A DNA stretch of 64,000 nucleotides. Source: Escherichia coli. GTDB lineage: Bacteria; Pseudomonadota; Gammaproteobacteria; Enterobacterales; Enterobacteriaceae. Shown here piece by piece: positions 40,153 to 60,221 of the stretch. The DNA is taken from the NCBI RefSeq assembly GCF_003019035.1, contig NZ_CP027447.1. One strand, given 5' to 3'. The translations under genes and the position numbers were made by a program. The notes under the pieces were generated by a model, which was not told the DNA's origin, searched no databases, and worked only from the letters and a program-made list of their open reading frames with translations. Numbering within the stretch: the first letter of the stretch is position 1; each line of letters starts with the position of its first letter.

Positions 40153-40163
40153 ATGAGGATGTG

Positions 40164-41210: not shown

Positions 41211-41265
41211 CAACACTGCTGCGGTGAGCGCAAAGGCGCTCGCCGCTTATTCGAAGAGAATCGAT

Positions 41266-42396: not shown

Positions 42397-43655
42397 GTTT
42401 TGCGACCATTTCTGTTATCGGACTGGGTTACATCGGGCTGCCTACAGCAGCTGCGTTTGCCTCTCGGCAAAAACAGGTGATTGGTGTCGATATCAACCAA
42501 CATGCGGTTGATACCATCAATCGTGGCGAAATCCATATCGTCGAACCTGATTTGGCGAGCGTAGTAAAAACTGCCGTAGAAGGCGGTTTTTTACGAGCGA
42601 GCACGACGCCAGTTGAAGCGGATGCCTGGCTGATTGCTGTACCCACGCCGTTTAAAGGCGATCATGAGCCAGATATGACCTACGTTGAATCGGCTGCTCG
42701 CTCCATTGCGCCAGTGCTGAAAAAAGGCGCGCTGGTGATCCTTGAATCCACCTCGCCGGTGGGGTCAACCGAGAAGATGGCAGAATGGTTAGCAGAGATG
42801 CGTCCAGATCTCACTTTCCCACAGCAGGTGGGCGAGTTGGCGGACGTCAACATTGCTTACTGCCCGGAACGCGTGTTACCGGGCCAGGTTATGGTCGAGC
42901 TGATTAAAAACGATCGCGTGATTGGTGGTATGACGCCGGTTTGTTCGGCCCGCGCCAGCGAACTGTACAAAATTTTCCTCGAAGGTGAGTGTGTCGTCAC
43001 TAACTCGCGGACGGCGGAAATGTGTAAGCTCACCGAAAACAGCTTCCGCGATGTGAATATCGCTTTTGCTAACGAACTGTCGCTGATTTGTGCCGATCAG
43101 GGAATTAACGTCTGGGAACTGATTCGCCTGGCGAATCGTCACCCTCGCGTTAATATTCTTCAGCCTGGTCCTGGCGTGGGCGGTCACTGCATTGCTGTTG
43201 ATCCGTGGTTTATCGTGGCACAGAACCCGCAGCAGGCGCGGCTTATCCGTACCGCGCGCGAAGTGAACGATCACAAACCGTTCTGGGTTATCGATCAGGT
43301 GAAAGCGGCGGTTGCCGACTGCCTTGCTGCTACCGATAAACGCGCCAGTGAACTGAAAATCGCCTGCTTTGGTCTGGCGTTTAAACCGAATATTGATGAC
43401 CTGCGCGAAAGCCCGGCGATGGAAATCGCTGAACTGATCGCCCAGTGGCATAGCGGCGAAACGCTGGTTGTTGAGCCTAACATCCACCAGTTGCCGAAAA
43501 AACTGACCGGGCTTTGTACTCTGGCGCAGCTTGACGAGGCGCTGGCAACGGCAGACGTGCTGGTGATGCTGGTCGATCATAGTCAGTTCAAAGTTATCAA
43601 TGGCGACAATGTCCATCAGCAGTATGTCGTCGATGCCAAAGGAGTTTGGCGCTGA
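42393..43655 (+). CDS. wecC: UDP-N-acetyl-D-mannosamine dehydrogenase
   Basis: 420 aa; N-terminal Rossmann motif [10 protein letters not shown]; overlaps the wecB stop. Confidence 0.94.
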
Positions 43656-44722
43656 TGAGAAAGATTCTGATAACAGGTGGTGCCGGGTTTATTGGCTCGG
43701 CGCTGGTGCGTTATATCATCAACGAAACGAGCGACGCGGTGGTAGTGGTCGATAAGCTGACCTACGCCGGAAACCTGATGTCGCTGGCACCGGTCGCGCA
43801 AAGCGAGCGCTTTGCCTTTGATAAAGTTGATATCTGCGATCGGGCAGAACTGGCGCGCGTATTCACTGAGCATCAGCCAGACTGTGTCATGCATCTGGCA
43901 GCCGAAAGCCATGTTGACCGTTCTATTGACGGCCCGGCAGCGTTTATTGAAACCAACATTGTCGGGACTTATACATTGCTTGAAGCGGCGCGGACTTACT
44001 GGAATGCGCTGACGGAAGATAAAAAATCAGCGTTCCGTTTTCATCATATCTCCACCGACGAAGTATATGGTGACCTGCACTCGACGGATGATTTCTTCAC
44101 CGAAACCACGCCGTATGCGCCGAGTAGCCCTTATTCCGCGTCAAAAGCCAGCAGCGACCATCTGGTGCGCGCCTGGCTGCGGACCTATGGTCTGCCGACG
44201 CTGATCACCAACTGCTCGAATAACTACGGTCCTTACCACTTTCCGGAAAAACTGATCCCGCTGATGATCCTCAACGCGCTGGCGGGTAAACCGCTGCCGG
44301 TATATGGCAACGGGCAGCAAATCCGTGACTGGCTGTATGTGGAAGATCACGCCCGCGCGCTGTATTGCGTGGCGACCACCGGGAAAGTCGGTGAAACCTA
44401 TAATATTGGTGGTCACAACGAGCGTAAGAATCTCGATGTTGTGGAAACCATTTGCGAGCTGCTGGAAGAACTGGCTCCGAACAAGCCGCACGGCGTGGCG
44501 CACTATCGTGACCTGATCACCTTTGTCGCTGACCGTCCGGGGCATGATCTGCGTTATGCCATTGATGCTTCGAAAATTGCCCGTGAACTTGGCTGGCTGC
44601 CGCAGGAAACCTTTGAAAGTGGAATGCGTAAAACGGTGCAGTGGTATCTGGCTAATGAAATCTGGTGGAAGCAGGTGCAGGACGGCAGCTATCAGGGCGA
44701 GCGTTTAGGTCTGAAAGGCTAA
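43655..44722 (+). CDS. rffG: dTDP-glucose 4,6-dehydratase
   Basis: starts [15 protein letters not shown] at the ATG overlapping the wecC TGA; 355 aa. Confidence 0.94.
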
Positions 44723-44740
44723 TTTTCAGCGGAGGCAGAC

Positions 44741-45622
44741 ATGAAAGGTATTATCCTGGCGGGCGGTTCCGGCACCCGATTGCATCCGATTACGCGCGGC
44801 GTATCGAAGCAACTGTTGCCGATTTACGATAAGCCAATGATTTACTATCCGCTGTCGGTGCTGATGCTGGCCGGTATCCGCGAAATTCTCATCATTACTA
44901 CGCCGGAAGATAAAGGTTATTTCCAGCGCCTGCTGGGTGACGGCAGTGAGTTCGGTATCCAGCTGGAATATGCCGAACAGCCCAGTCCGGACGGTCTGGC
45001 GCAGGCCTTTATCATCGGTGAAACCTTCCTCAACGGTGAACCTTCTTGTCTGGTGCTGGGCGATAACATCTTCTTCGGACAGGGCTTCAGTCCGAAGCTG
45101 CGTCATGTTGCGGCGCGCACGGAAGGGGCGACGGTATTTGGCTATCAGGTAATGGACCCGGAACGCTTTGGCGTCGTGGAGTTTGACGACAATTTCCGCG
45201 CTATCTCGCTGGAAGAAAAGCCAAAACAGCCGAAGTCAAACTGGGCGGTGACCGGACTTTATTTCTACGACAGTAAAGTCGTGGAGTACGCAAAGCAGGT
45301 GAAGCCGTCGGAGCGTGGTGAACTGGAGATTACCTCCATCAACCAGATGTACCTCGAGGCGGGCAACCTGACCGTTGAACTGCTCGGGCGCGGATTTGCC
45401 TGGCTGGACACTGGCACTCACGACAGCCTGATTGAAGCCAGTACCTTTGTACAGACGGTAGAAAAACGCCAGGGCTTTAAGATTGCCTGCCTGGAAGAGA
45501 TTGCCTGGCGTAACGGCTGGCTCGATGACGAGGGTGTGAAGCGTGCTGCCAGTTCATTAGCGAAAACCGGCTACGGCCAATATCTGCTGGAGTTACTTCG
45601 TGCCCGTCCGCGCCAGTATTGA
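44741..45622 (+). CDS. rffH: glucose-1-phosphate thymidylyltransferase
   Basis: 293 aa; N-terminal GGSGTRL nucleotidyltransferase motif. Confidence 0.94.
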
Positions 45623-46274
45623 GCCACTAACCTGGGAAAACGCCTTCTTTGGTGTTAACAGCGCCATTGTGCGTATTAGTCCTGACGCGGCACTCCTGAC
45701 GCCAGACGCCTTAGCGCCGTGGTCACGGGTGCAGGCCAAAATTGCGGCATCAAATACGGGTGAACTGGATGCCCTGCAACAGCTGGGATTCTCCCTGGTA
45801 GAAGGTGAAGTTGATTTGGCGCTACCCGTGAACAATGTCAGTGATAGTGGTGCAGTAGTGGCACAAGAGACCGATATTCCCGCATTACGTCAGTTAGCCA
45901 GCGCCGCATTTGCGCAAAGCCGTTTTCGTGCGCCGTGGTATGCGCCTGACGCCAGCGGTCGCTTTTATGCACAGTGGATTGAAAATGCCGTGCGCGGCAC
46001 CTTTGATCATCAATGTCTGATTTTACGTGCGGCGTCCGGCGATATTCGCGGTTATGTCTCTTTACGGGAACTCAATGCGACAGATGCGCGAATTGGCCTG
46101 CTGGCTGGACGTGGTGCAGGTGCTGAGCTGATGCAAACGGCGCTAAACTGGGCGTATGCTCGCGGTAAAACAACTTTGCGGGTGGCGACCCAAATGGGCA
46201 ACACCGCCGCGCTTAAACGATACATACAAAGTGGTGCGAATGTAGAAAGCACCGCGTACTGGTTATACAGGTGA
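45600..46274 (+). CDS. wecD: dTDP-fucosamine acetyltransferase
   Basis: 224 aa from a GTG start that overlaps the rffH 3' end; GNAT-like C-terminus. Confidence 0.85.
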
Positions 46275-46278
46275 TCAC

Positions 46279-47409
46279 ATGATTCCATTTAACGCACCGC
46301 CGGTGGTGGGAACCGAACTCGACTATATGCAGTCGGCAATGGGTAGCGGCAAACTGTGCGGCGATGGTGGTTTTACCCGTCGCTGCCAGCAGTGGCTGGA
46401 GCAACGTTTTGGCAGCGCCAAAGTGTTACTGACGCCATCCTGCACCGCTTCGCTGGAGATGGCGGCGCTGCTGCTCGATATCCAGCCTGGCGATGAAGTG
46501 ATCATGCCGAGCTACACCTTTGTCTCCACCGCCAATGCCTTTGTGCTGCGTGGCGCGAAAATCGTCTTTGTGGATGTTCGCCCGGACACCATGAACATCG
46601 ACGAAACGCTGATTGAAGCGGCGATCACCGACAAAACGCGCGTTATCGTGCCGGTCCATTACGCGGGTGTGGCCTGCGAAATGGACACTATTATGGCGTT
46701 GGCGAAGAAGCATAATCTATTTGTGGTGGAAGATGCCGCTCAGGGCGTGATGTCCACTTACAAAGGGCGTGCGCTGGGAACCATTGGTCATATTGGCTGC
46801 TTTAGCTTCCATGAAACCAAAAACTACACGGCGGGTGGTGAAGGCGGCGCGACGCTGATTAACGATAAAGCGTTGATCGAACGAGCCGAGATCATCCGTG
46901 AAAAAGGCACAAACCGCAGCCAGTTCTTCCGTGGTCAGGTCGATAAATATACCTGGCGCGATATTGGCTCCAGCTATTTGATGTCCGATCTGCAAGCAGC
47001 GTACCTTTGGGCGCAACTGGAAGCCGCTGAACGTATCAATCAGCAGCGTCTGGCGCTGTGGCAAAACTACTACGATGCACTGGCGCCTCTGGCAAAAAAT
47101 GGGCGTATCGAGCTGCCGTCGATTCCCGATGGCTGCGTGCAGAACGCGCATATGTTCTACATTAAACTGCGGGATATTGATGACCGGAGCGCGTTGATTA
47201 ACTTTCTGAAAGAAGCGGAAATCATGGCGGTGTTCCATTACATTCCGCTGCACGGTTGCCCTGCGGGGGAGCGCTTTGGTGAGTTCCACGGTGAAGATCG
47301 CTACACCACCAAAGAGAGCGAGCGCCTGGTGCGCCTGCCGTTGTTCTACAACCTGTCGCCCGTCAATCAGCGCACGGTAATTGCGACCTTGTTGAACTAC
47401 TTCTCCTGA
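46279..47409 (+). CDS. wecE: dTDP-4-amino-4,6-dideoxygalactose transaminase
   Basis: 376 aa; DegT/DnrJ/EryC1-type aminotransferase. Confidence 0.93.
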   Translation: MIPFNAPPVVGTELDYMQSAMGSGKLCGDGGFTRRCQQWLEQRFGSAKVLLTPSCTASLEMAALLLDIQPGDEVIMPSYTFVSTANAFVLRGAKIVFVDVRPDTMNIDETLIEAAITDKTRVIVPVHYAGVACEMDTIMALAKKHNLFVVEDAAQGVMSTYKGRALGTIGHIGCFSFHETKNYTAGGEGGATLINDKALIERAEIIREKGTNRSQFFRGQVDKYTWRDIGSSYLMSDLQAAYLWAQLEAAERINQQRLALWQNYYDALAPLAKNGRIELPSIPDGCVQNAHMFYIKLRDIDDRSALINFLKEAEIMAVFHYIPLHGCPAGERFGEFHGEDRYTTKESERLVRLPLFYNLSPVNQRTVIATLLNYFS

Positions 47410-47410
47410 T

Positions 47411-48661
47411 ATGTCGTTGGCAAAAGCGTCCTTGTGGACGGCGGCCAGTACACTGGTCAAGATTGGTGCCGGGTTACTGGTCGGTAAGTTGCTGGCGGTG
47501 TCATTTGGTCCTGCGGGGCTTGGGCTGGCGGCAAATTTCCGCCAGTTGATTACCGTGCTCGGCGTGCTTGCCGGGGCGGGCATCTTTAATGGCGTAACCA
47601 AATACGTTGCTCAGTACCATGATAATCCGCAGCAGCTGCGTCGCGTGGTCGGCACTTCATCAGCGATGGTACTTGGTTTCTCTACGCTGATGGCGCTGGT
47701 TTTTGTGCTGGCAGCAGCGCCAATCAGCCAGGGATTGTTTGGTAATACCGACTATCAGGGGCTGGTACGTTTAGTGGCGCTGGTGCAAATGGGGATTGCC
47801 TGGGGCAACCTGTTACTGGCGTTGATGAAAGGCTTTCGCGATGCCGCAGGTAATGCGTTATCTCTGATTGTCGGCAGCTTGATTGGCGTTCTCGCGTACT
47901 ACGTCAGTTACCGTTTGGGCGGTTATGAAGGGGCGTTGCTGGGGCTGGCGTTGATTCCCGCGCTGGTGGTGATTCCTGCCGTCATCATGCTAATTAAGCG
48001 TGGTGCAATCCCGTTAAGCTATCTGAAACCCAGCTGGGATAACGGCCTGGCAGGGCAGTTGAGCAAATTTACGCTCATGGCGTTGATTACGTCGGTAACC
48101 TTGCCTGTTGCTTACATCATGATGCGTAAACTGCTGGCGGCGCAGTATAGCTGGGATGAAGTGGGGATCTGGCAAGGGGTGAGCAGTATTTCCGATGCCT
48201 ACCTGCAATTTATTACGGCATCGTTCAGCGTATATTTGCTGCCCACGTTGTCGCGGCTAACGGAAAAGCGCGATATCACCCGGGAAGTGGTTAAATCGCT
48301 GAAATTCGTCTTACCGGCAGTGGCGGCGGCGAGTTTTACCGTCTGGTTGCTGCGTGATTTTGCTATCTGGCTGCTGTTGTCGAATAAATTTACCGCTATG
48401 CGCGATCTCTTTGCCTGGCAGTTGGTAGGTGATGTGTTAAAAGTGGGCGCTTATGTCTTTGGTTATCTGGTGATCGCCAAAGCGTCACTGCGGTTTTATA
48501 TTCTGGCGGAAGTCAGCCAGTTCACTTTATTGATGGTATTTGCCCACTGGCTAATCCCTGCGCATGGTGCACTGGGCGCGGCGCAGGCCTATATGGCAAC
48601 TTATATCGTCTATTTTTCTCTTTGTTGTGGCGTGTTTTTACTCTGGCGTAGGCGGGCATGA
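47411..48661 (+). CDS. wzxE: ECA lipid III flippase
   Basis: 416 aa polytopic membrane protein in the conserved position. Confidence 0.92.
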
Positions 48662-49736
48662 CTGTACTGATTCACGTACTGGGATCGGATATCCCTCACC
48701 ATAACCGAACCGTTCTGCGGTTTTTCAACGACGCGCTGGCCGCGACGAGCGAGCACGCGCGCGAGTTTATGGTTGTTGGCAAGGACGACGGCTTAAGTGA
48801 TAGCTGTCCGGCGCTTTCTGTGCAATTTTTCCCTGGGAAAAAATCGCTGGCGGAAGCGGTCATCGCGAAAGCAAAAGCTAACCGTCAGCAGCGATTTTTT
48901 TTCCACGGTCAGTTCAATCCCACACTGTGGCTGGCTCTGCTGAGTGGTGGCATTAAGCCCAGCCAGTTTTACTGGCATATCTGGGGGCAGACCTGTACGA
49001 ACTTTCCAGTGGCTTGAGATATAAGTTTTTTTACCCGCTACGTCGCCTGGCGCAAAAGCGAGTCGGCTGTGTATTTGCCACCCGCGGTGATTTGAGCTTT
49101 TTTGCCAAAACGCACCCAAAGGTGCGGGGCGAACTGCTGTACTTCCCGACGCGGATGGACCCTTCTCTCAATACGATGGCGAACGATCGGCAACGTGAAG
49201 GGAAAATGACCATTCTGGTGGGCAACTCCGGCGACCGCAGCAATGAGCATATTGCTGCCTTGCGCGCCGTTCATCAGCAATTTGGCGATACGGTAAAAGT
49301 GGTGGTGCCGATGGGATATCCGCCTAATAACGAAGCGTACATCGAGGAAGTTCGTCAGGCGGGGCTGGAGTTATTCAGCGAAGAAAATCTGCAAGTTCTG
49401 AGCGAAAAACTGGAATTTGACGCCTATCTGACGCTACTTCGTCAGTGCGATCTTGGTTACTTTATTTTTGCCCGCCAGCAGGGCATTGGTACGCTGTGCT
49501 TACTGATTCAGGCGGGCATTCCTTGTGTGCTTAACCGGGAAAATCCGTTCTGGCAGGATATGACGGAACAACATTTGCCGGTGCTGTTTACTACCGACGA
49601 TCTCAACGAGGATATTGTGCGTGAAGCGCAGCGCCAGCTGGCGTCGGTGGATAAAAACACCATTGCCTTCTTTAGCCCGAACTATCTGCAAGGCTGGCAG
49701 CGGGCGTTGGCGATTGCCACCGGGGAGGTCGCATGA
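48658..49736 (+). pseudogene. wecF: TDP-Fuc4NAc:lipid II Fuc4NAc transferase WecF, reading frame split by a 1 bp deletion at the G run 48983-48987
   Basis: two ORFs (119 aa, 48658..49017, and 240 aa, 49014..49736) together equal the roughly 359 aa WecF; the N-terminal frame reads [14 protein letters not shown]-stop, while the upstream continuation of the second frame reads [15 protein letters not shown]. Confidence 0.8.
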
Positions 49737-51085
49737 GTCTGCTGCAATTCAGTGGCCTGTTTGTTGTCTGGCTGCTCTGCACGCTGTTTATTGCCACGCT
49801 GACCTGGTTTGAGTTTCGCCGTGTGCGCTTTAACTTCAATGTCTTCTTTTCATTGCTGTTTTTGCTCACCTTTTTCTTCGGCTTTCCGCTGACCAGCGTG
49901 CTGGTATTTCGCTTTGATGTTGGTGTCGCGCCGCCAGAAATCTTGTTGCAGGCGTTGCTTTCTGCAGGCTGCTTCTACGCGGTTTACTATGTCACCTACA
50001 AAACCCGTCTACGCAAACGCGTTGCTGATGCACCGCGCCGTCCGCTGTTTACCATGAACCGCGTGGAGACCAATCTCACGTGGGTGATCCTGATGGGCAT
50101 CGCGCTGGTAAGCGTCGGCATCTTCTTCATGCACAACGGCTTTTTGCTGTTCCGGCTTAACTCCTACAGTCAGATCTTCTCCAGTGAAGTCTCCGGCGTG
50201 GCGTTAAAACGCTTCTTTTACTTTTTCATCCCGGCGATGCTGGTGGTCTACTTTCTGCGCCAGGACAGCAAAGCGTGGCTGTTTTTCCTCGTCAGCACGG
50301 TCGCTTTTGGCTTGCTGACTTATATGATTGTCGGCGGCACTCGCGCCAATATCATCATCGCATTCGCTATCTTCCTGTTTATTGGCATTATTCGCGGCTG
50401 GATTTCGCTGTGGATGCTGGCGGCGGCGGGCGTGCTGGGGATTGTGGGCATGTTCTGGCTGGCGTTAAAACGCTATGGAATGAATGTGAGCGGCGATGAA
50501 GCGTTCTATACGTTTCTCTATCTCACTCGCGACACCTTTTCACCGTGGGAGAATCTGGCGTTGCTGTTGCAGAACTACGACAACATCGACTTCCAGGGCC
50601 TGGCTCCAATTGTCCGCGATTTCTATGTCTTTATCCCTTCCTGGCTGTGGCCGGGTCGCCCGAGTATGGTGCTGAACTCCGCCAACTACTTTACCTGGGA
50701 AGTGCTGAATAACCACTCCGGACTGGCGATCTCGCCTACGCTTATAGGCTCACTGGTGGTGATGGGCGGCGCGTTGTTCATCCCGCTCGGGGCGATTGTT
50801 GTTGGACTGATCATCAAATGGTTCGACTGGCTGTATGAGCTGGGCAACCGCGAGACTAATCGCTATAAGGCTGCGATATTGCACAGTTTCTGCTTCGGGG
50901 CGATCTTCAATATGATCGTGCTGGCGCGTGAAGGGCTGGATTCGTTTGTCTCACGCGTGGTCTTTTTTATCGTGGTCTTCGGCGCATGTCTGATGATCGC
51001 AAAACTGTTGTACTGGCTTTTTGAAAGCGCCGGACTCATTCATAAACGTACAAAATCATCGCTCCGGACGCAGGTTGAAGGATAA
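49733..51085 (+). CDS. wzyE: ECA polymerase
   Basis: 450 aa polytopic membrane protein. Confidence 0.93.
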
Positions 51086-51087
51086 CA

Positions 51088-51828
51088 ATGAATAACAACA
51101 CCACGGCACCGACCTATACGCTGCGTGGCTTACAGTTGATTGGTTGGCGTGATATGCAGCACGCCCTCGATTATCTGTTTGCTGACGGGCAGCTTAAGCA
51201 GGGAACGCTGGTTGCCATTAATGCCGAAAAAATGCTGACCATTGAAGATAATGCTGAGGTCAGGGAGCTAATTAACGCTGCCGAATTTAAATATGCGGAT
51301 GGCATCAGCGTTGTACGTTCAGTACGTAAAAAGTACCCGCAGGCGCAGGTTTCCCGCGTTGCCGGGGCCGATCTCTGGGAAGAGCTGATGGCGCGCGCAG
51401 GCAAAGAAGGGACACCGGTATTTCTTGTGGGCGGTAAACCTGAAGTGCTGGCGCAAACTGAAACTAAACTGCGCAACCAGTGGAATGTGAATATCGTTGG
51501 CAGTCAGGATGGTTATTTTAAACCCGAGCAGCGTCAGGCGCTGTTTGAACGCATTCATGCCAGCGGTGCGCAAATCGTCACCGTTGCGATGGGATCGCCA
51601 AAGCAGGAGATCTTCATGCGCGACTGCCGTCTGGTGCATCCGGATGCGCTGTATATGGGCGTTGGCGGGACTTACGATGTTTTCACCGGTCACGTAAAAC
51701 GTGCACCGAAAATCTGGCAAACGCTGGGACTGGAGTGGCTCTACCGCCTGCTTTCGCAGCCGAGCCGCATTAAGCGTCAGCTTCGTTTGCTGCGTTATTT
51801 ACGCTGGCACTACACCGGCAACCTCTGA
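51088..51828 (+). CDS. wecG: UDP-ManNAcA:lipid I ManNAcA transferase
   Basis: 246 aa; last gene of the ECA cluster. Confidence 0.93.
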
Positions 51829-51847
51829 TTTTCCTCTCTTTGTAAAG

Positions 51848-51884
51848 CGACGGAGTGGTCACTCCGTCGCCTGTCTGCTTTTTT
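51848..51884 (+). terminator. rho-independent terminator after the ECA operon
   Basis: GCGACGGAGTG/CACTCCGTCGC stem followed by CTGTCTGCTTTTTT. Confidence 0.8.
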
Positions 51885-52018
51885 ATTACACAAAGCATTC
51901 AAATTTTTAATGCTTTATTTGCCATTTCTCCTGAATTACGAAAACATTCGCAACACTCGATGTACCCATAACGATAACCGGTAACACCGGAAAGCATGCA
52001 AACACAACACGAGGATTT

Positions 52019-53404
52019 ATGGCAGATAACAAACCAGAGCTACAGCGTGGGCTGGAAGCTCGACATATCGAACTCATCGCCCTGGGGGGCACCATTGGCG
52101 TCGGCCTGTTTATGGGGGCCGCCAGTACCCTGAAATGGGCCGGGCCATCCGTATTGTTGGCCTATATCATCGCCGGGCTATTCGTCTTTTTCATCATGCG
52201 TTCAATGGGCGAAATGTTGTTCCTCGAACCTGTTACCGGTTCGTTCGCCGTTTATGCGCATCGTTATATGAGCCCGTTTTTTGGCTATCTCACCGCCTGG
52301 TCTTACTGGTTTATGTGGATGGCGGTGGGGATCTCAGAAATCACCGCCATTGGCGTTTATGTCCAGTTCTGGTTCCCGGAGATGGCGCAGTGGATACCCG
52401 CATTGATCGCGGTGGCGCTGGTGGCGTTGGCGAATCTGGCGGCGGTGCGGTTGTACGGCGAAATCGAGTTCTGGTTTGCGATGATCAAAGTCACCACGAT
52501 TATCGTGATGATTGTCATTGGCCTGGGCGTGATTTTCTTTGGCTTTGGCAATGGCGGGCAGTCGATTGGTTTTAGCAATCTCACAGAGCATGGCGGTTTC
52601 TTTGCGGGGGGCTGGAAAGGGTTCCTGACCGCGCTGTGTATTGTGGTGGCGTCCTACCAGGGCGTGGAGCTGATTGGCATTACTGCCGGTGAAGCGAAGA
52701 ATCCGCAGGTGACGCTGCGCAGTGCCGTAGGCAAGGTGCTGTGGCGAATCCTGATTTTCTACGTAGGCGCGATTTTCGTTATCGTCACCATCTTCCCGTG
52801 GAATGAAATAGGCAGCAACGGCAGCCCGTTCGTACTGACTTTCGCCAAAATCGGCATTACCGCAGCGGCGGGTATTATCAACTTTGTGGTGCTGACGGCT
52901 GCGCTCTCTGGCTGTAACAGCGGCATGTACAGTTGCGGACGTATGCTCTATGCACTGGCGAAAAACCGTCAGTTACCGGCGGCAATGGCGAAAGTTTCCC
53001 GTCACGGCGTACCGGTTGCGGGTGTGGCAGTATCTATTGCTATCCTGTTAATTGGCTCATGCCTGAACTACATCATTCCCAATCCGCAGCGTGTGTTTGT
53101 CTACGTCTACAGTGCCAGCGTGCTTCCGGGGATGGTGCCATGGTTTGTGATATTGATAAGCCAGCTGCGTTTTCGTCGTGCGCATAAAGCGGCGATTGCC
53201 AGCCATCCGTTCCGCTCAATCCTGTTCCCGTGGGCCAACTACGTAACAATGGCATTCCTGATTTGCGTTTTGATCGGCATGTACTTTAATGAAGATACGC
53301 GTATGTCGCTGTTTGTCGGCATCATCTTTATGCTGGCGGTGACGACGATTTATAAAATTTTTGGGCTTAATCGCCACGGTAAAGCGCATAAACTGGAGGA
53401 ATAA
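52019..53404 (+). CDS. yifK: APC family amino acid permease
   Basis: 461 aa, 12 predicted helices; position before the tRNA cluster. Confidence 0.92.
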
Positions 53405-53506
53405 GCAGCAAAACGCACAAACCGTAACCAAACGCGCAATTTATTTAAAAAGGGACTAGACAGAGGGGTGGGAAGTCCGTATTATCCACCCCCGCAACGG
53501 CGCTAA

Positions 53507-53583
<77 letters not shown>

Positions 53584-53640
53584 TTTAGTCCCGGCGCTTG
53601 AGCTGCGGTGGTAGTAATACCGCGTAACAAGATTTGTAGT

Positions 53641-53717
53641 GGTGGCTATAGCTCAGTTGGTAGAGCCCTGGATTGTGATTCCAGTTGTCGTGGGTTCGAA
53701 TCCCATTAGCCACCCCA
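53641..53717 (+). tRNA. hisR: tRNA-His (anticodon GUG), with the extra 5' G
   Basis: GGTGGCTATAGCTCAGTTGGTAGAGC...ATTAGCCACCCCA. Confidence 0.94.
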
Positions 53718-53737
53718 TTATTAGAAGTTGTGACAAT

Positions 53738-53824
53738 GCGAAGGTGGCGGAATTGGTAGACGCGCTAGCTTCAGGTGTTAGTGTCCTTACGGACGTGGGG
53801 GTTCAAGTCCCCCCCCTCGCACCA
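53738..53824 (+). tRNA. leuT: tRNA-Leu (anticodon CAG), long variable arm
   Basis: GCGAAGGTGGCGGAATTGGTAGACGC...CCCCCCCTCGCACCA; 87 nt. Confidence 0.94.
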
Positions 53825-53866
53825 CGACTTTAAAGAATTGAACTAAAAATTCAAAAAGCAGTATTT

Positions 53867-53943
53867 CGGCGAGTAGCGCAGCTTGGTAGCGCAACTGGTT
53901 TGGGACCAGTGGGTCGGAGGTTCGAATCCTCTCTCGCCGACCA
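53867..53943 (+). tRNA. proM: tRNA-Pro (anticodon UGG)
   Basis: CGGCGAGTAGCGCAGCTTGGTAGCGC...TCTCGCCGACCA. Confidence 0.94.
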
Positions 53944-53949
53944 ATTTTG

Positions 53950-53975
53950 AACCCCGCTTCGGCGGGGTTTTTTGT
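53950..53975 (+). terminator. rho-independent terminator after the tRNA cluster
   Basis: AACCCCGC-TTCG-GCGGGGTT hairpin followed by a T run. Confidence 0.85.
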
Positions 53976-54089
53976 TTTCTGTGCATTTCGTCACTTTCCC
54001 TTCGCAATAAACGCCCGTAATAACGCATTGCGCCACGGTATGATTTCGCCCTTAACTTATTGAAGGATGACTTCAGGCAAGGAGCGACC

Positions 54090-55325
54090 ATGCTGCAACA
54101 GGTTCCAACGCGTGCTTTTCATGTGATGGCGAAACCGAGCGGTTCCGATTGTAATCTGAACTGTGACTACTGTTTTTATCTCGAAAAACAATCCCTTTAC
54201 CGCGAAAAGCCAGTCACGCATATGGACGATGACACGCTGGAAGCGTATGTCCGTCACTATATCGCTGCCAGCGAAACCCAAAACGAAGTGGCTTTTACCT
54301 GGCAGGGCGGCGAACCAACGTTACTCGGGCTGGATTTTTACCGCCGTGCCGTGGCGCTACAGGCGAAATATGGTGCTGACAGGAAGATAAGTAACAGCTT
54401 CCAGACTAATGGCGTGCTGCTTGATGACGAATGGTGTGCATTTCTGGCAGAAAATCATTTTCTTGTTGGGTTATCGCTGGATGGTCCGGCTGAGATCCAC
54501 AATCAATATCGCGTGACCAAAGGCGGCAGACCAACGCATAAGCTGGTGATGCGTGCCCTGACGCTCCTGCAAAAACATCATGTCGACTATAACGTGCTGG
54601 TCTGCGTAAATCGCACCAGTGCGTTACAACCTTTGCAAATCTATGATTTTCTGTGTGATGCAGGTGTTGAGTTCATCCAGTTTATTCCTGTGGTCGAGCG
54701 CCTGGCTGATGAAACGGCTGCTCATGCTGGACTTAAGCTACATGCTCCCGGCGATATTCAGGGCGAACTGACGGAATGGTCGGTGTGCCCGCAAGAGTTC
54801 GGTGAGTTTCTGGTGGCGATATTCGACCACTGGATTAGGCGCGACGTCGGTAAGATTTTCGTAATGAATATCGAATGGGCGTTCGCCAATTTTGTCGGTG
54901 CGCCAGGAGCGGTTTGCCATCATCAGCCAACCTGTGGGCGCTCGGTGATTGTTGAACACAACGGCGACGTTTACGCCTGCGATCACTATGTTTATTCGCA
55001 ATATCGACTGGGGAATATGCTTCAGCAGACAATTGCAGAAATGGTAGATTCCCCGCAACAGCAGGTGTTTGGTGAAGATAAATTTAAGCAGTTACCAGCG
55101 CAGTGTCGCAGTTGTAACGTGTTAAAAGCATGTTGGGGAGGCTGCCCGAAACACCGCTTTATGCTCGATGCCAGCGGCAAACCGGGGCTGAATTATTTGT
55201 GTGCCGGGTATCAGCGTTATTTCCGCCATCTACCGCCATATCTTAAAGCAATGGCTGATTTGCTGGCGCACGGTCGTCCGGCCAGCGACATTATGCAGGC
55301 GCATTTGATGGTGGTGAATAAGTAG
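54090..55325 (+). CDS. aslB: anaerobic sulfatase-maturating enzyme homologue (radical SAM)
   Basis: ORF track N-extended; recalled protein starts MLQQVP at the ATG at 54090; CxxxCxxC motif (CNLNCDYCFY); 411 aa. Confidence 0.92.
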   Translation: MLQQVPTRAFHVMAKPSGSDCNLNCDYCFYLEKQSLYREKPVTHMDDDTLEAYVRHYIAASETQNEVAFTWQGGEPTLLGLDFYRRAVALQAKYGADRKISNSFQTNGVLLDDEWCAFLAENHFLVGLSLDGPAEIHNQYRVTKGGRPTHKLVMRALTLLQKHHVDYNVLVCVNRTSALQPLQIYDFLCDAGVEFIQFIPVVERLADETAAHAGLKLHAPGDIQGELTEWSVCPQEFGEFLVAIFDHWIRRDVGKIFVMNIEWAFANFVGAPGAVCHHQPTCGRSVIVEHNGDVYACDHYVYSQYRLGNMLQQTIAEMVDSPQQQVFGEDKFKQLPAQCRSCNVLKACWGGCPKHRFMLDASGKPGLNYLCAGYQRYFRHLPPYLKAMADLLAHGRPASDIMQAHLMVVNK

Positions 55326-55351
55326 AAATCGGCGGCCGCCTGCGGTTGATT

Positions 55352-55455
55352 GCCGGATGCGGCGTGAACGCCTTATCCGGCCTACAATCCTTGCAAATTC
55401 AATAAATTGCAGCGTTCTGTAGGCTGGATAAGATGCGTCAGCATCGCATCCGGCA
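55352..55455. repeat. pair of inverted REP elements (BIME-like) between aslB and aslA
   Basis: GCCGGATGCGGCGTGAACGCCTTATCCGGCCTACA and, inverted, TGTAGGCTGGATAAGATGCGTCAGCATCGCATCCGGCA. Confidence 0.85.
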
Positions 55456-55482
55456 AAGGCAGATCTCAGCGATAGCGCCGGC

Positions 55483-57138
55483 TTAGTCAGATTTAATCTG
55501 CGCGCGTGGTGGATATTTTTTCAGGATCTCCATATACGCGTGCATTTCGGTCTGTAGCGGTACACCCATCGGAATATGGCGCACGCCGATGGAGTCGCTT
55601 TCCTGCGGATCGGTGTACAGGTTAAACACCGACGATCCCGCCGTTTGCATTACTGTGCCGGTGAATCCACCCTGATACCCGCTCTGGGTATACGCGTACG
55701 GTTGCTGGATCAGGACGTGATACTTGAACTCATCCATACGCACAGCAGAAAGTTTACCGTTGAGGAAGTAGTGCTCGGCCTTACGGTTAGACTGACCATT
55801 TGTTCCCAGGAAGAAAGATGTCTGGTCCACACCATCGATAAAGGTGGTTTTCGGTACTAAATTCGCTACTTTCGCCCCAGGATGCCCCGCCAGATCCAGC
55901 GCCGTAGGGAAGAGATCCGCCAGATCGACAATGCCGTCAGATTTACGCGGTTGGATCATGCCTTTCCAGTAAACGAAGGTTGGCACACGAACGCCGCCTT
56001 CCCATGTAGAACCTTTCGCACCGCGGAACGGCGTGCGACCGTGCGGCGGAACTTCGGCTTCCGGACCGTTATCAGAGGTGAACACAATCAGCGTGTTATC
56101 AAGCTGACCGTTTTTCTCCAGTGCTTTATACAGATTGGCGAAGATATCGTTCATCTCCACCATGCAGTCGCCGTAAGAGGTGCGCGCCGGAGAGCTACCC
56201 GCATATTTCGCATTTGGGTAGTTATCGAAGTGACAGCCGCGAGTGCCGTAGTAGAGGAAGAAAGGCTTATCGCTCTTCGCCATCTTGTCGAGGAACTTAA
56301 CGCCATATTCCATCCAGCGTTGATCCAGGTCTTCCATATATTTCGGCGTAATGTCGGCAATGGCTTCCTGTTCACCGCCGCGCACGGCATGAACGTCATC
56401 TTTGCTGAACGGCAGTTTTTGGATGTATTCAGAACGATCCGGGCTCAGGGCGACTTCCGGGTTGACGTGAACATCACGCCATTCGGTATACATATCGGAT
56501 ACCGAGTTAAAGCCGCGGAAATCATCAAAGCCAACGTTCTGCGGCTGCGACTCTTTGTTTTCCCCCATATGCCATTTCCCGATGGCCTGAGTGACGTAGC
56601 CCTGATCGTGCAGCAACTGCGGCAGAGTGGTTAACCCTTGCAGACCGCCCGGTTGCCCGTACATTGGCGGCATCAGAATGCCGTGGTGGATGGAGTATTG
56701 TCCGGTAAGAATCGTGGCGCGGGTTGGGGAAGAACTCGGTTGAGAATACGCCGAAGTTAAAATCAGCCCCTGGCTGGCAACGGCGTCGATATCTGGTGTA
56801 GGGTTACCCACCGCCACGCCGCCGCCGTTAAAGCCAACATCCATCCAGCCCACATCATCCAGCAAGAAAACAACCACGTTCGGTTTCTTACCGGTTTTTT
56901 TCTCAAGTTCTGCCAGCTTCTGCTGGGTTTCTTTGTCTTGTGCAGGATGCTGCATCACCGGCATCATGTTGTCGGCAATAGTGGTCGCCGGTTTAACCAG
57001 ATACTGGTTTGGGTGATCGTATCCGGCAAAGCCTTTGCGTGCGGTGGCGGTTGACGGGGTATCTGCCGCGTTGGCCATGAGTGGAAGAGCGGCGGCGACA
57101 GCCACAACAAGAAGTTTGGGTGAAAACGAAAATTCCAT
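55483..57138 (-). CDS. aslA: arylsulfatase
   Basis: 551 aa with a signal peptide and the sulfatase signature CxPxR ([11 protein letters not shown]). Confidence 0.93.
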
Positions 57139-57562
57139 GCAAAATGCTCCGGTTTCATGTCGTCAAAATGTTGACGTAATTAAGCATTGATAATTGAGAT
57201 CCCTCTCCCTGACAGGATGATTGCATAAATAATAGTGATGAAAATAAATTATTTATTTATCCAGATAATGAATTGGAAAATCAGGAGAGCGTTTTCAATC
57301 CTACCTCTGGCGCAGGTGATATGTAAGGCGGTGATGTTATATCGCGTTGATTATTGATGCTGTTTTTAGTTTTAACGGCAATTAATATATATGTTATTAA
57401 TTGAATGAATTTTATTATTCATTATATATATGTGTAGAATCGTGCGCAGGAGAAATATTCACTCAGGAAGTTATTACTCAGGAAGCAAAGAGGATTACAG
57501 AATTATCTCATAACAAGTATTAAGGGATGTTATTTCCCAGTTCTCTGTGGCATAATAAACGA

Positions 57563-57759
57563 GTAGATGCTCATTCCATCTCTTATGTTCGCCTTAGTGC
57601 CTCATAAACTCCGGAATGACGCAGAGCCGTTTACGGTGCTTATCGTCCACTGACAGATGTCGCTTATGCCTCATCAGACACCATGGACACAACGTTGAGT
57701 GAAGCACCCACTTGTTGTCATACAGACCTGTTTTAACGCCTGCTCCGTAATAAGAGCAG
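57563..57759 (+). ncRNA. glmZ: small RNA GlmZ
   Basis: sequence from GTAGATGCTCATTCCATCTCTTATGTTCGCC to the terminator AACGCCTGCTC...GAGCAGGCGTTTTTTT matches GlmZ as I recall it; a CATAAT -10 hexamer lies just upstream of the G at 57563. Confidence 0.85.
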
Positions 57760-57816
57760 GCGTTTTTTTATGTATCAGAAAGGTCCCGGAGGTGCTTGCC
57801 TCCGGGTGAGAAAGAA

Positions 57817-59013
57817 CTACTGTGGCGGGTTGTTCTGCAACGTTAACATCAAACCGTCGCGGCGCATCGCTGCAGCTTCTTCTGGTTTGTGCAGTCTGTC
57901 CAGCGCGTCGGCAAGCCATGCGTAATCGTAGGCGTCCGGACGTTGTTTCAGCGCCGCGCGGAAGGCGAGCGATGCTTCCTGCCATTCGCCGTGCTTCATC
58001 AGCGACTGACCCAGTGTGCTCCACAACAGCGGGCGATCGCCCACGTTTTTGATCTGTTGGCGCAGCACTTTTTCCAGCTGTTCCGGGTTATTGGTTTTCA
58101 GACGCGGGATCGGCAGCAGCAGGCGATCGTCATACTGGCGTTTCAGGCCGTCGATGATAATTTGCTGGGCAGTATCATGATCGTCACATTCAATAAGATG
58201 TTCCGCCATTGCCACCTGCAACGCCACCTGATGACGCGTTTTCCGGCTTTGGTTTTTCCACCAGTTACGCAAACCTTCGCTACCGTTATCGGCACGCGCC
58301 TGATCCATCAGGCCAATCCATGCCTGTTGTTCCAGCATTGCACGATGTTCTTCATCGCCAACGTGGGCTTTCGCCATTGATGGGATGATATCCAGCAGCG
58401 AACTCCATGCACCAGTGCGGATATACGCCTGTTCCGCCAGACGTAATACTTCCGGATGGCGTGGCGTAACTTCCAGCAGCTTATCAACGCCGTGACGTGC
58501 TGCATGGTTTTCATTACGGGCCAGTTGCAGACGTACACGGGTGATTTCTACCGGAATTGTGTCGTTGCCGGCCAGCTCCGCTGCGCGTTCCAGATGTTGG
58601 TTGGCGCGTGCTTCATCACCGCGTTGTTGCGCGGCTTCGGCAGCCAGCAGATAGTTCACCACCGGTTGTTCAGCGTGATCGGCATTTTTCGCCATCAGCT
58701 TTTCAACTTGCTGATAATCGCCTTCCGCTAGTTTCAGCAGCGCCTGTTCGGTCTGCTTACGGGCACGGCGACGCTTACGTCCGACAAACCACCCACGGGT
58801 GTGCGCGCCAGTGCGGAAGATCCGCCGCAGTAGCCACTCAATGGCAAACAGCACTACCATCGCCAGAATCAAAATAATCGCCAGGCCCGTGACGCTGGTT
58901 TCGATATTGTAGTTGTCGGTCTGAATCAATACGTAACCCTGATGACCGGCAATCATCGGGCCAACCACGATCCCCGCAATCAGCAAAACAAAGAGCAATA
59001 ACACTTTTAGCAT
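57817..59013 (-). CDS. hemY: protoheme IX biogenesis protein (TPR-like)
   Basis: 398 aa; N-terminal transmembrane segments. Confidence 0.93.
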   Translation of the reverse strand: MLKVLLLFVLLIAGIVVGPMIAGHQGYVLIQTDNYNIETSVTGLAIILILAMVVLFAIEWLLRRIFRTGAHTRGWFVGRKRRRARKQTEQALLKLAEGDYQQVEKLMAKNADHAEQPVVNYLLAAEAAQQRGDEARANQHLERAAELAGNDTIPVEITRVRLQLARNENHAARHGVDKLLEVTPRHPEVLRLAEQAYIRTGAWSSLLDIIPSMAKAHVGDEEHRAMLEQQAWIGLMDQARADNGSEGLRNWWKNQSRKTRHQVALQVAMAEHLIECDDHDTAQQIIIDGLKRQYDDRLLLPIPRLKTNNPEQLEKVLRQQIKNVGDRPLLWSTLGQSLMKHGEWQEASLAFRAALKQRPDAYDYAWLADALDRLHKPEEAAAMRRDGLMLTLQNNPPQ

Positions 59014-59015
59014 GG

Positions 59016-60221
59016 TTATTCTCCTTGCGGCGCGGCTGCCGGAGTATCAGCTTGCGGTGCAGGTGCAGGTGCAGGTGCAGGTGCAGGTGCAGGTTTAGCT
59101 TCCGTTGTCCCTGCTGCCGGTTGTGCCAGCAGGTTACGCACGCGGGTCTGCATCAGTTTTTCCAGCATCGCCTGGCTTTGCAGGGTTTCCGGGAGATCCA
59201 TCGAGATATTTTGCTGGCTTAACTGGTCCACCTCGTCGAGGAACGCTTTGGTGGTGGCATCATCAGTATCGTAGTAAGCACGTACCCAGGTGGAGACATT
59301 CTCCAGCGCCTGGCGATAAGTCTCTTCCTGATGACGCGGTACAGCTTGTGCAGCGACCAGCAGGCGAGAGCGAATATTTTCGCGCAGATAGATATCCTGA
59401 TTTGGCGCTAACAGCGGTACGGCGGTGTCATCACGACGGCGAATCGTAATGAAGTTGTCCATAAAGTTCTGCCAGCTTTTTTGCAGATTGATACGCCATT
59501 CGCTGATGGAACTGGAAAGCTCTTCACCGTCGGAATCCATCGGCGAACCATCGCTGTCATTATCAGCCAGACGCAGGTTATCTACCTGATTTGAAAGCTG
59601 ATTAAGCTTAAGGATAATGCCGTCATAATCCACCTGCGATACCGCAGAAAGGCTGGCGATATCATCGGTAATTGCCCGGCGAACGGTAATCAGACTCGGG
59701 TCATTCATATCCGCCAGGCTGGCGTCTGCACTTTTCAGCAACGCTGCAGCGGTCGTGACGTCCTGATCGCTCCACAGCTTCCGTCCGGCGAGTTTCACCA
59801 GGAAATCAGCCTGAGCCAGCAGCCAGGTTTTAGCATCGCTGCCGGAAATAGTCGCGACCTTTTGTTGGACTTCATCCAGCTGTTTTGCCAGCGTTTCTTG
59901 CTGACGATTCGCCTGCTCAAGCTGTACAGCTTGTTGCTTGATAATGCCTTCCAGCTCAGCTTTTTGGCTCTCCTGGGCTTTTTGCAGTGCCGTCAGTTGA
60001 TTAGCCAGGGCATCGCTGGTGGCAGTCTGATTGACGGCCTGTTGTTTACCCCAGCCATACAAACCGACGCCCGCCGCCAGAGCAATAGCGATAGCCACCG
60101 CGCTGAGAATCAATGCGGTATTGTTCTTACTCTTTTTTTCTGTTGCGACAGGTTGTGACGTGGTGTCCACGGCCTCCCTGGTCTCTTCAACCACGGCGGA
60201 GGTTTTTTCTTGTTCCGTCAT
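59016..60221 (-). CDS. hemX: HemX, membrane protein with coiled-coil region and a C-terminal Pro-Ala repeat
   Basis: 401 aa; C-terminus [26 protein letters not shown]. Confidence 0.9.
59056..59095. repeat. hexanucleotide tandem repeat, 6 units of GGTGCA on the plus strand, encoding (PA)6 in hemX
   Basis: TGCGGTGCAGGTGCAGGTGCAGGTGCAGGTGCAGGTGCAGGTTT read directly. Confidence 0.9.

What the first reader, a model, noticed from the sequence alone, without database searches (positions are those of the whole stretch)
59056..59095. In-frame hexanucleotide repeat in hemX encoding a (Pro-Ala)6 tract
Six perfect tandem units of GGTGCA (GCAGGT phasing) encode [12 protein letters not shown] near the HemX C-terminus. 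Such repeats are prone to slipped-strand expansion or contraction, and changes remain in frame. From memory the K-12 protein is about 8 residues shorter, which would fit four fewer units, but I cannot confirm that count.
Basis: partly seen in the sequence, partly recalled or inferred. Interest (0 to 1): 0.3.

Follow-up and report, generated by a model that had tools for sequence, protein, structure and literature searches.

The report
Known variable repeat in E. coli hemX
The six-copy, 6-base repeat at the end of the hemX gene is real and varies widely between E. coli strains, but it is the long-used strain-typing marker CVN014, so nothing here is new.

Summary
Window 59056-59094 is a perfect GGTGCA x6.5 array, (CCT GCA)6 on the gene strand. 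It encodes (Pro-Ala)6 at residues 377-388 of the 401-aa HemX, in the C-terminal tail beyond the Pfam HemX domain (130-363).

K-12 HemX is 393 aa with 2 units, exactly four fewer. In 5,425 complete E. coli genomes the locus differs in steps of 6 bp. Sequenced alleles run from 1 to 25 perfect units, and one strain has lost the tract. The 6-unit allele is about 14% of two systematic samples.

The repeat changes faster than its flanks. The window's nearest relative (SCU-301) has identical hemX-hemY at all 2,405 aligned positions but 9 units. Four O157:H7 strains and one O55:H7 strain have identical hemX outside the repeat but 5, 7, 13, 15 and 17 units.

The locus is already known. The published primers of CVN014, from the generic E. 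coli MLVA typing scheme, match the window exactly on both sides. The 147-bp amplicon and the published formula (PS-111)/6 give allele 6. The literature calls CVN014 the scheme's most variable locus.

The best explanation is replication slippage in a length-tolerant, probably disordered tail. No evidence supports on/off switching or an effect on hemY translation. Interest is low.

The parts
59056..59094 (-). Hexanucleotide VNTR: (CCT GCA)6 on the gene strand plus a partial unit. It encodes (Pro-Ala)6, HemX residues 377-388. This is MLVA locus CVN014, allele 6.
   Evidence: Polymorphism.
59016..60221 (-). hemX coding sequence (401 aa). It has a predicted single membrane helix at about residues 33-59 and a long helix at 69-125. 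The Pfam HemX domain covers 130-363 and an Ala/Pro-rich tail covers 364-401.
   Evidence: One search is used for secondary structure only, because the model is low-confidence.
58971..58994 (+). Binding site of published primer CVN014-F (TCCCCGCAATCAGCAAMACAAAGA). It lies inside the 5' end of hemY.
   Evidence: 0 mismatches, unique in the window. Primer sequence from PMC8143711 Table 1.
59098..59117 (-). Binding site of published primer CVN014-R (GCAGCRGGGACAACGGAAGC). The amplicon 58971-59117 is 147 bp, and (147-111)/6 = 6.
   Evidence: 0 mismatches, unique in the window. Primer and formula from PMC8143711.
59021..59026 (-). hemY Shine-Dalgarno sequence AAGGAG, embedded in the last codons of hemX (PQGE*). 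It lies 32 nt downstream of the repeat. The hemX stop codon is at 59016-59018 and the hemY ATG at 59011-59013.
   Evidence: Read from the sequence. The APQGE* end is conserved in Citrobacter and Salmonella.
57817..59013 (-). hemY coding sequence (398 aa), translationally adjacent to hemX. It contains the forward primer site.
   Evidence: RefSeq annotation of orthologous loci.

Best explanation
This is a coding variable-number tandem repeat: a pure (CCTGCA)n microsatellite in the 3' end of hemX. It is the locus already used as CVN014 in the generic E. coli MLVA typing scheme.

Copy number most likely changes by slipped-strand mispairing during replication. Whole 6-bp units are gained or lost, so the reading frame is always kept. 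Only the length of a (Pro-Ala)n stretch changes. That stretch sits in the short, probably unstructured and probably periplasmic C-terminal tail of HemX, downstream of the conserved HemX domain. Because the tail tolerates length change, alleles drift nearly neutrally and far faster than point substitutions accumulate. That makes the locus a good strain marker and nothing more.

Shown: the repeat, its coding consequence, the polymorphism, its speed relative to the flanks, and the identity with CVN014.

Inferred: slippage as the mechanism, near-neutrality, and the disorder and periplasmic location of the tail.
For: Identity with CVN014: both published primers match uniquely with 0 mismatches at 58971-58994 (+) and 59098-59117 (-) (primers in PMC8143711 Table 1). 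The amplicon is 147 bp. It leaves a non-repeat offset of exactly 111 bp, as in the published formula (PS-111)/6, which gives allele 6.

Literature: within ST131 alone CVN014 ranges from 2 to 11 (PMC3407997). [quoted passage not shown] Population data: 5,425 of 5,426 complete genomes carry the locus. Length differences in 118 of 120 sampled rows are exact multiples of 6 bp.

Sequenced alleles have 1, 2, 3, 5, 6, 7, 9, 11, 12, 13, 15, 16, 17, 20 and 25 units. All are perfect CCTGCA runs starting at gene nt 1129, and all keep the ORF intact.

Speed relative to the flanks: SCU-301 versus the window shows 0 substitutions in 2,405 bp but 9 versus 6 units. Five O157:H7/O55:H7 genomes show 0 of 1,170 substitutions outside the repeat but 5, 7, 13, 15 and 17 units. 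One HemY protein allele (WP_000921791.1) is linked to hemX alleles with the tract deleted and with 1 to 25 units.

Length tolerance: the tract lies outside the Pfam domain (130-363). The orthologous tail in Citrobacter and Salmonella is Ala/Pro/Thr-rich but varies in sequence and length. One natural isolate lacks the tract entirely. The structure model predicts no secondary structure after residue 365 (low confidence).

Codon uniformity, with every unit CCT GCA, points to amplification at the DNA level rather than residue-by-residue selection.

Short alleles are stable in laboratory lineages. All listed K-12 derivatives have 2 units and all listed B/BL21 derivatives have 6. This fits the published rule that VNTR mutability rises with copy number (Vogler et al. 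2006, as cited in PMC5183578).
Against: No mutation event was observed directly. Slippage is inferred from the pattern of whole-unit changes in perfect arrays.

Neutrality is not tested. The allele distribution is concentrated at 2-11 units, which could reflect mutational bias or weak selection against long tracts.

The function of HemX is poorly known, so an effect of tail length cannot be excluded.

The structure model is of low confidence (mean pLDDT 44.6), so disorder of the tail is only weakly supported.

The stability of the K-12 and B alleles is confounded by the very short divergence time of laboratory strains.

The searchable literature never states that CVN014 lies in hemX. The link rests on the primer match made here.
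Confidence: 0.88

Rival explanations
1. The tract is a functional tuning knob. The length of the (Pro-Ala)n stretch, a stiff extended spacer, adjusts how far the HemX C-terminus reaches, or how HemX interacts with a partner, and selection keeps different lengths in different lineages. Alternatively, repeat length modulates translation of the downstream, translationally adjacent hemY.
For: The tract lies 32 nt upstream of the hemY Shine-Dalgarno, which sits inside the last hemX codons. An Ala/Pro-rich tail is retained in Citrobacter and Salmonella. The same GCACCT unit is present in five copies in C. gillenii. Alleles are concentrated at 2-11 units. A Salmonella VNTR paper argues for stabilising forces on coding VNTRs (PMC5183578).
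Against: Only 13 residues and no domain follow the tract, so there is nothing for a spacer to position. A natural isolate lacks the tract altogether and another has a single unit. Salmonella has no repeat at all. Near-identical strains differ by up to 12 units, which looks like drift. Predicted accessibility of the hemY ribosome-binding site stays at 0.003-0.004 for every n from 0 to 25.
Confidence: 0.07
2. The locus is a phase-variable contingency locus. Repeat gain or loss switches hemX, or the operon, on and off, as in simple-sequence contingency genes of Haemophilus or Neisseria.
For: It is a perfect, highly mutable simple-sequence repeat inside a gene.
Against: The unit is 6 bp, so every change stays in frame. 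All 20 sequenced E. coli alleles keep an intact ORF of the expected length. The tract is at the 3' end rather than near the start or in a promoter.
Confidence: 0.01
3. The length variation is a sequencing or assembly artefact at a low-complexity site.
For: One genome (P276M) shows an imperfect tract together with a frameshifted hemY, which suggests assembly errors there.
Against: Differences are exact multiples of 6 bp in 118 of 120 sampled complete genomes from many platforms. Lineages are internally consistent, with all K-12 derivatives at 2 units and all B/BL21 derivatives at 6. PCR fragment sizing in independent laboratories finds the same polymorphism.
Confidence: 0.01
4. The locus and its consequences are the same, but a different mutational mechanism operates. 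Copy number changes mainly by RecA-dependent unequal recombination or by import of alleles through horizontal recombination, not by replication slippage.
For: Closely related strains can differ by many units, for example 5 versus 17 in O157:H7. This could reflect multi-unit jumps. One allele arose by a 27-bp deletion between CCTGCA and CCGGCA that removed the tract.
Against: The arrays are only 6-150 bp long, which is short for efficient homologous recombination. Flanks of strains that differ in copy number are identical, which argues against imported alleles. Published passage experiments on comparable 6-bp VNTRs find mostly single-unit steps (PMC5183578).
Confidence: 0.05

Closest known systems
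CVN014, a locus of the generic E. coli MLVA scheme (GECM-7/GECM-10; Lindstedt et al. 2007, Lobersli et al. 2012, as cited in PMC8143711, PMC5217547 and PMC3877011)
   Same: It is the same locus. Both primers match exactly and flank the array. The unit is 6 bp and the offset 111 bp. The published allele range (about 1-15) overlaps the range found here, and the locus is described as the most variable in the scheme.
   Different: Nothing differs at the sequence level. The papers available here do not say that the locus lies in hemX or that it encodes a Pro-Ala tract, and they do not report alleles above about 15. Complete genomes here reach 25 units, and one has lost the tract.
Coding hexanucleotide VNTRs used for typing enteric bacteria, e.g. 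STTR5 in yohM of Salmonella Typhimurium (PMC5183578)
   Same: Both are 6-bp in-frame repeats inside a gene. Copy number is highly polymorphic, steps are mostly single units, mutability depends on array length, and the loci are used for outbreak typing.
   Different: The gene and species differ. STTR5 lies between two domains of its protein, whereas the hemX tract is in a terminal tail with no domain after it.
Ala-Pro / Pro-Ala-rich extended segments in envelope proteins, e.g. the OmpA hinge, TonB proline-rich spacer and 2-oxo-acid dehydrogenase E2 linkers (from general knowledge, not tested here)
   Same: Both have an alternating Pro/Ala composition, which is expected to give an extended, semi-rigid, non-globular segment.
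   Different: Those segments connect two folded domains. Here only 13 residues follow the tract, so it is a tail and not a linker. No homology is implied.
Simple-sequence contingency loci (phase variation by repeat slippage)
   Same: The presumed mutational mechanism, slipped-strand mispairing in a perfect short repeat, is the same.
   Different: Contingency loci switch expression because their units are not multiples of 3 or because they lie in promoters. This unit is 6 bp and at the 3' end, so there is no switch.

Membership tests
MLVA locus CVN014 (generic E. coli MLVA) | Locus bounded by primer pair TCCCCGCAATCAGCAAMACAAAGA / GCAGCRGGGACAACGGAAGC | tested here: met
   Both primers match once each with 0 mismatches, in convergent orientation, at 58971-58994 (+) and 59098-59117 (-). 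None is expected by chance. Primer sequences are from PMC8143711 Table 1.
MLVA locus CVN014 (generic E. coli MLVA) | 6-bp repeat unit with a 111-bp non-repeat offset in the amplicon (allele = (PS-111)/6) | tested here: met
   The amplicon is 147 bp. Subtracting 6 x 6 bp of repeat leaves 111 bp, so the allele is 6.
MLVA locus CVN014 (generic E. coli MLVA) | Copy number polymorphic among E. coli strains, including within clones | tested here: met
   Sequenced alleles have 1-25 units. Flanks are identical while copy number differs. Literature.
HemX family (Pfam PF04375) | Significant match to the HemX profile over its full length | tested here: met
   E=3.9e-108, 360.9 bits against a cut-off of 25.9. 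Profile positions 2-235 of 236 match residues 130-363. The gene order is hemC-hemD-hemX-hemY.
Uroporphyrinogen-III C-methyltransferase (the RefSeq product name of HemX) | Presence of a tetrapyrrole methylase / SAM-dependent methyltransferase domain | tested here: not met
   The Pfam scan finds only PF04375 above its cut-off and no methyltransferase family. The protein is described as poorly characterised (PMC2704936). The name is a legacy label.
Phase-variable simple-sequence contingency locus | Repeat-number change shifts the reading frame or promoter spacing and so switches expression | tested here: not met
   The unit is 6 bp. All 20 sequenced E. coli alleles keep an intact ORF. The tract is at the 3' end of the gene.
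Inter-domain Pro/Ala-rich linker | The segment connects two folded domains | tested here: not met
   The Pfam domain ends at residue 363. Only 13 residues follow the tract, and no helix or strand is predicted after residue 365.
Replication-slippage microsatellite | Directly observed gain or loss of whole units during growth, independent of recombination | not testable with these tools
   Only the population pattern is available: perfect arrays, whole-unit differences and identical flanks.

The most novel reading that the evidence does not exclude
The length of the HemX (Pro-Ala)n tail is not neutral. It would tune the activity or partner contacts of this poorly understood inner-membrane protein, a distant Mic60 relative encoded in the haem operon. 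Repeated, independent repeat expansions at the same site in several species would then reflect selection for an adjustable tail. These expansions are CCTGCA in E. coli and C. gillenii, and an apparent 9-bp PAA repeat in C. sedlakii.
Probability: 0.05. Interest if true: 0.35.

Novelty: already known. Interest (0 to 1): 0.08.

Why it matters
It matters little beyond bookkeeping. The repeat is a well-used epidemiological marker, and its polymorphism has been exploited since 2007.

This check adds three things. It places CVN014 explicitly in the 3' tail of hemX, where it encodes a Pro-Ala tract. It extends the allele range in complete genomes from a deleted tract up to 25 units. It shows directly that copy number changes between strains whose flanking 1.2-2.4 kb are identical.

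For annotators, HemX protein lengths of 384-439 aa in E. coli are expected allelic variation and not errors.

Tried and rejected
1. Literature search for 'hemX' with 'VNTR' or 'MLVA'. It found only a Salmonella paper in which hemX appears for an unrelated SNP. The link to CVN014 came from primer matching instead.

2. The original Lindstedt 2007 paper is not held in the library, so the primers and formula were taken from later open-access papers that reproduce them.

3. Hairpin formation by the repeat strand. The DNA fold is -11.3 kcal/mol against -7.8 +/- 1.6 for shuffles (z = -2.2). This is a weak effect from the TGCA palindromes and is not needed for the explanation.

4. Regulation of hemY through mRNA structure. 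Partition-function folding for n = 0-25 shows no change at the hemY ribosome-binding site, so this was rejected as unsupported.

5. AlphaFold2 model from a 14-sequence alignment. Mean pLDDT was 44.6, too poor for fold comparison. Only secondary-structure boundaries were used, and no fold search was run.

6. No solved structure of a relative exists by sequence search.

7. A full census of all 5,425 genomes was not possible, because the search tool lists at most 60 rows. Two systematic 'spread' samples and one search with a synthetic 30-unit query were used instead.

8. ORFs on the opposite strand that overlap hemX near the repeat (e.g. 59105-59449 +) are antisense to a well-supported gene and were not pursued.

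Full report
**Observation.** Window 59056-59094 is a perfect tandem array of the hexamer GGTGCA: 6.5 copies, 100% matches, TRF score 78. It is the only array with more than 2.5 copies in the whole 64-kb window. It lies on the minus strand inside the 401-codon ORF 59016-60221. That ORF matches Pfam HemX (PF04375) at E=3.9e-108 over residues 130-363. It sits in the canonical order hemC-hemD-hemX-hemY, followed by the GlmZ sRNA and aslA. On the gene strand the array is (CCT GCA)6 at gene nt 1129-1164. It encodes (Pro-Ala)6 at residues 377-388, followed by [13 protein letters not shown] and the stop codon. Its end coordinate is one base too far.

**Comparison with other E. coli.** A 300-bp query spanning the array matches 5,425 of 5,426 complete E. 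coli genomes.
- Sampling: I took two systematic samples of 60 genomes each, one ranked against the window allele and one against the K-12 allele. The span in the record differs from the span in the query by an exact multiple of 6 bp in 118 of 120 rows.
- Allele counts: converted to units, the counts are 1 unit: 1; 2: 20; 3: 2; 4: 13; 5: 19; 6: 17; 7: 8; 8: 12; 9: 6; 10: 6; 11: 5; 12: 2; 13: 1; 14: 1; 15: 2; 16: 2; 17: 1.
- Exceptions: one row has the tract deleted and one comes from a poor assembly.
- Longest alleles: a synthetic query with 30 units found alleles of up to 25 units.
- Sequence check: I fetched 18 E. coli alleles and read them. Seventeen are perfect CCTGCA runs starting at the same nucleotide, with 1, 2, 3, 5, 6, 7, 9, 11, 12, 13, 15, 16, 17, 20 or 25 units. 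All keep the reading frame. Protein lengths run from 391 to 439 aa.
- NCTC11023: this strain (384 aa) has lost the tract through a 27-bp deletion, relative to a two-unit allele, between CCTGCA and a downstream CCGGCA.

**Rate relative to the flanks.**
- The genome closest to the window, SCU-301 (99.9% over 20 kb), is identical to it at all 2,405 aligned positions of hemX-hemY. It carries nine units instead of six.
- Four O157:H7 genomes and one O55:H7 genome have no substitution in the 1,170 bp of hemX outside the repeat. They carry 5, 13, 15, 17 and 7 units.
- One HemY protein allele is linked to hemX alleles with the tract deleted and with 1 to 25 units.
- By contrast, every K-12 derivative listed has two units and every B/BL21 derivative listed has six.
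- This fits the published rule that VNTR mutability increases with copy number (Vogler et al. 2006, cited in PMC5183578). The short history of laboratory strains confounds the comparison.

**It is already known.** The flanks looked like the primers of CVN014, a locus of the generic E. coli MLVA scheme, as I remembered them. I therefore checked.
- The primers printed in PMC8143711 Table 1 are F TCCCCGCAATCAGCAAMACAAAGA and R GCAGCRGGGACAACGGAAGC.
- They match the window once each without mismatch, at 58971-58994 (+) and 59098-59117 (-), and bracket the array.
- The amplicon is 147 bp. Subtracting 36 bp of repeat leaves 111 bp, exactly the offset in the published formula CVN014 = (PS-111)/6. The window carries CVN014 allele 6.
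- Within ST131 alone the locus ranges from 2 to 11 (PMC3407997).
[quoted passage not shown] - None of the papers I could search states that the locus lies in hemX. That mapping is a small addition.

**Protein context.** HemX is a poorly characterised protein despite its RefSeq name, 'uroporphyrinogen-III C-methyltransferase'.
- Pfam finds no methyltransferase domain, and a review lists it as poorly characterised (PMC2704936).
- A preprint describes it as a distant Mic60 homologue that lacks the mitofilin domain and is restricted to Gammaproteobacteria (10.1101/2022.06.14.496148).
- The structure model is of low confidence (mean pLDDT 44.6). It predicts a membrane helix at 33-59, helices up to residue 365, and no secondary structure from 366 to 401. 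No relative has a solved structure.
- The cluster of lysines before the membrane helix suggests an N-in, C-out topology, which would put the tail in the periplasm. This is inferred from the positive-inside rule and is not tested.
- In Citrobacter and Salmonella the sequence is conserved up to ...RVRNLLAQP. It then becomes Ala/Pro/Thr-rich and variable in length, and ends in a conserved APQGE*.
- That conserved end coincides with the hemY Shine-Dalgarno AAGGAG (window 59021-59026), which lies in the last hemX codons. Two bases separate the hemX stop codon from the hemY ATG.
- C. gillenii has five GCACCT units at the orthologous site. Salmonella has only a single degenerate CCTGCC. The seed of the repeat is therefore older than E. 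coli, but the large expansions are seen in E. coli.

**Mechanism.** The best explanation is replication slippage in a pure hexanucleotide array. Perfect arrays, whole-unit changes, identical flanks and uniform codons all point to amplification at the DNA level. The protein consequence is a longer or shorter Pro-Ala stretch in a tail that tolerates anything from no tract to 25 units.

I tested the main functional alternative that can be computed, an effect on hemY translation. Partition-function folding of the hemX-hemY junction for 0 to 25 units leaves the predicted accessibility of the hemY ribosome-binding site unchanged at 0.003-0.004. A phase-variation switch is excluded because the 6-bp unit never changes the frame. 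An assembly artefact is excluded by the multiple-of-6 pattern, the consistency within lineages and the independent PCR literature. A weak hairpin tendency of the repeat strand (z = -2.2) is not needed for the explanation. A length-tuning role for the tail cannot be excluded, because the function of HemX is unknown, but nothing here supports it.

**Verdict.** The feature is an ordinary, already described VNTR that is in routine use for strain typing. Novelty: already known. Interest: low.

Noticed in passing
window 57563-57769 (+): A full-length GlmZ (SraJ) sRNA gene (Rfam RF00083, 218 bits) lies between aslA and hemY, convergent with hemY. A terminator-like hairpin sits at 57735-57764. This is the expected K-12-like arrangement.
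   Followed up: partly
window 53507-53940 (+): Rfam finds a cluster of four tRNA genes. This is ordinary context upstream of aslA.
   Followed up: no
window 59011-59030 (-): The hemY Shine-Dalgarno AAGGAG (59021-59026) lies inside the last codons of hemX (PQGE*), and only 2 nt separate the hemX stop from the hemY ATG. This probably explains why the APQGE* end of HemX is conserved across Escherichia, Citrobacter and Salmonella while the tail before it is not.
   Followed up: partly
proteins P0028 / P0016 / P0007 (Citrobacter sedlakii HemX): C. sedlakii HemX proteins of 394, 397 and 400 aa differ by one, two or three copies of 'PAA' at the position of the E. coli tract (APAPAAPQ, APAPAAPAAPQ, APAPAAPAAPAAPQ). 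This looks like an independent 9-bp VNTR at the same site. It was seen only at the protein level.
   Followed up: no
L013:2580-2700 (Citrobacter gillenii CP151088.1): The orthologous hemX tail carries the same hexamer in five copies (GCA CCT x5, encoding [10 protein letters not shown]). Salmonella (L014) has only a single degenerate CCT GCC. The repeat seed therefore predates E. coli.
   Followed up: partly
L008 (E. coli NCTC11023, NZ_LS483297.1), hemX at 1583-2737: This natural allele (384 aa) has lost the whole Pro-Ala tract plus QADTP through a 27-bp deletion, relative to a 2-unit allele, between CCTGCA and CCGGCA. The tract seems dispensable, unless this is an assembly error in a single genome.
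   Followed up: partly
L018 (E. coli P276M, NZ_CP044293.1): The tract is imperfect (…[20 protein letters not shown]…), and the adjacent hemY is annotated 'frameshifted; internal stop'. Assembly errors are the most likely cause, rather than real interruptions of the repeat.
   Followed up: no
window 40000-60000 vs NZ_CP051751.1 (SCU-301): The strain the window comes from is not in the complete-genome collection. The best match over 20 kb is SCU-301 at 99.9%, and the next are phylogroup-F-like strains (CE10, IAI39, SMS-3-5) at 98.7-99.0%. Over hemY-hemX alone, the listed best matches reach 99.4%.
   Followed up: partly
window 59016-60221 (-) and RefSeq annotations in L001-L020: RefSeq names HemX 'uroporphyrinogen-III C-methyltransferase', but the protein matches only the HemX family and has no methyltransferase domain. 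The product name is a legacy label and should not be read as a function.
   Followed up: partly
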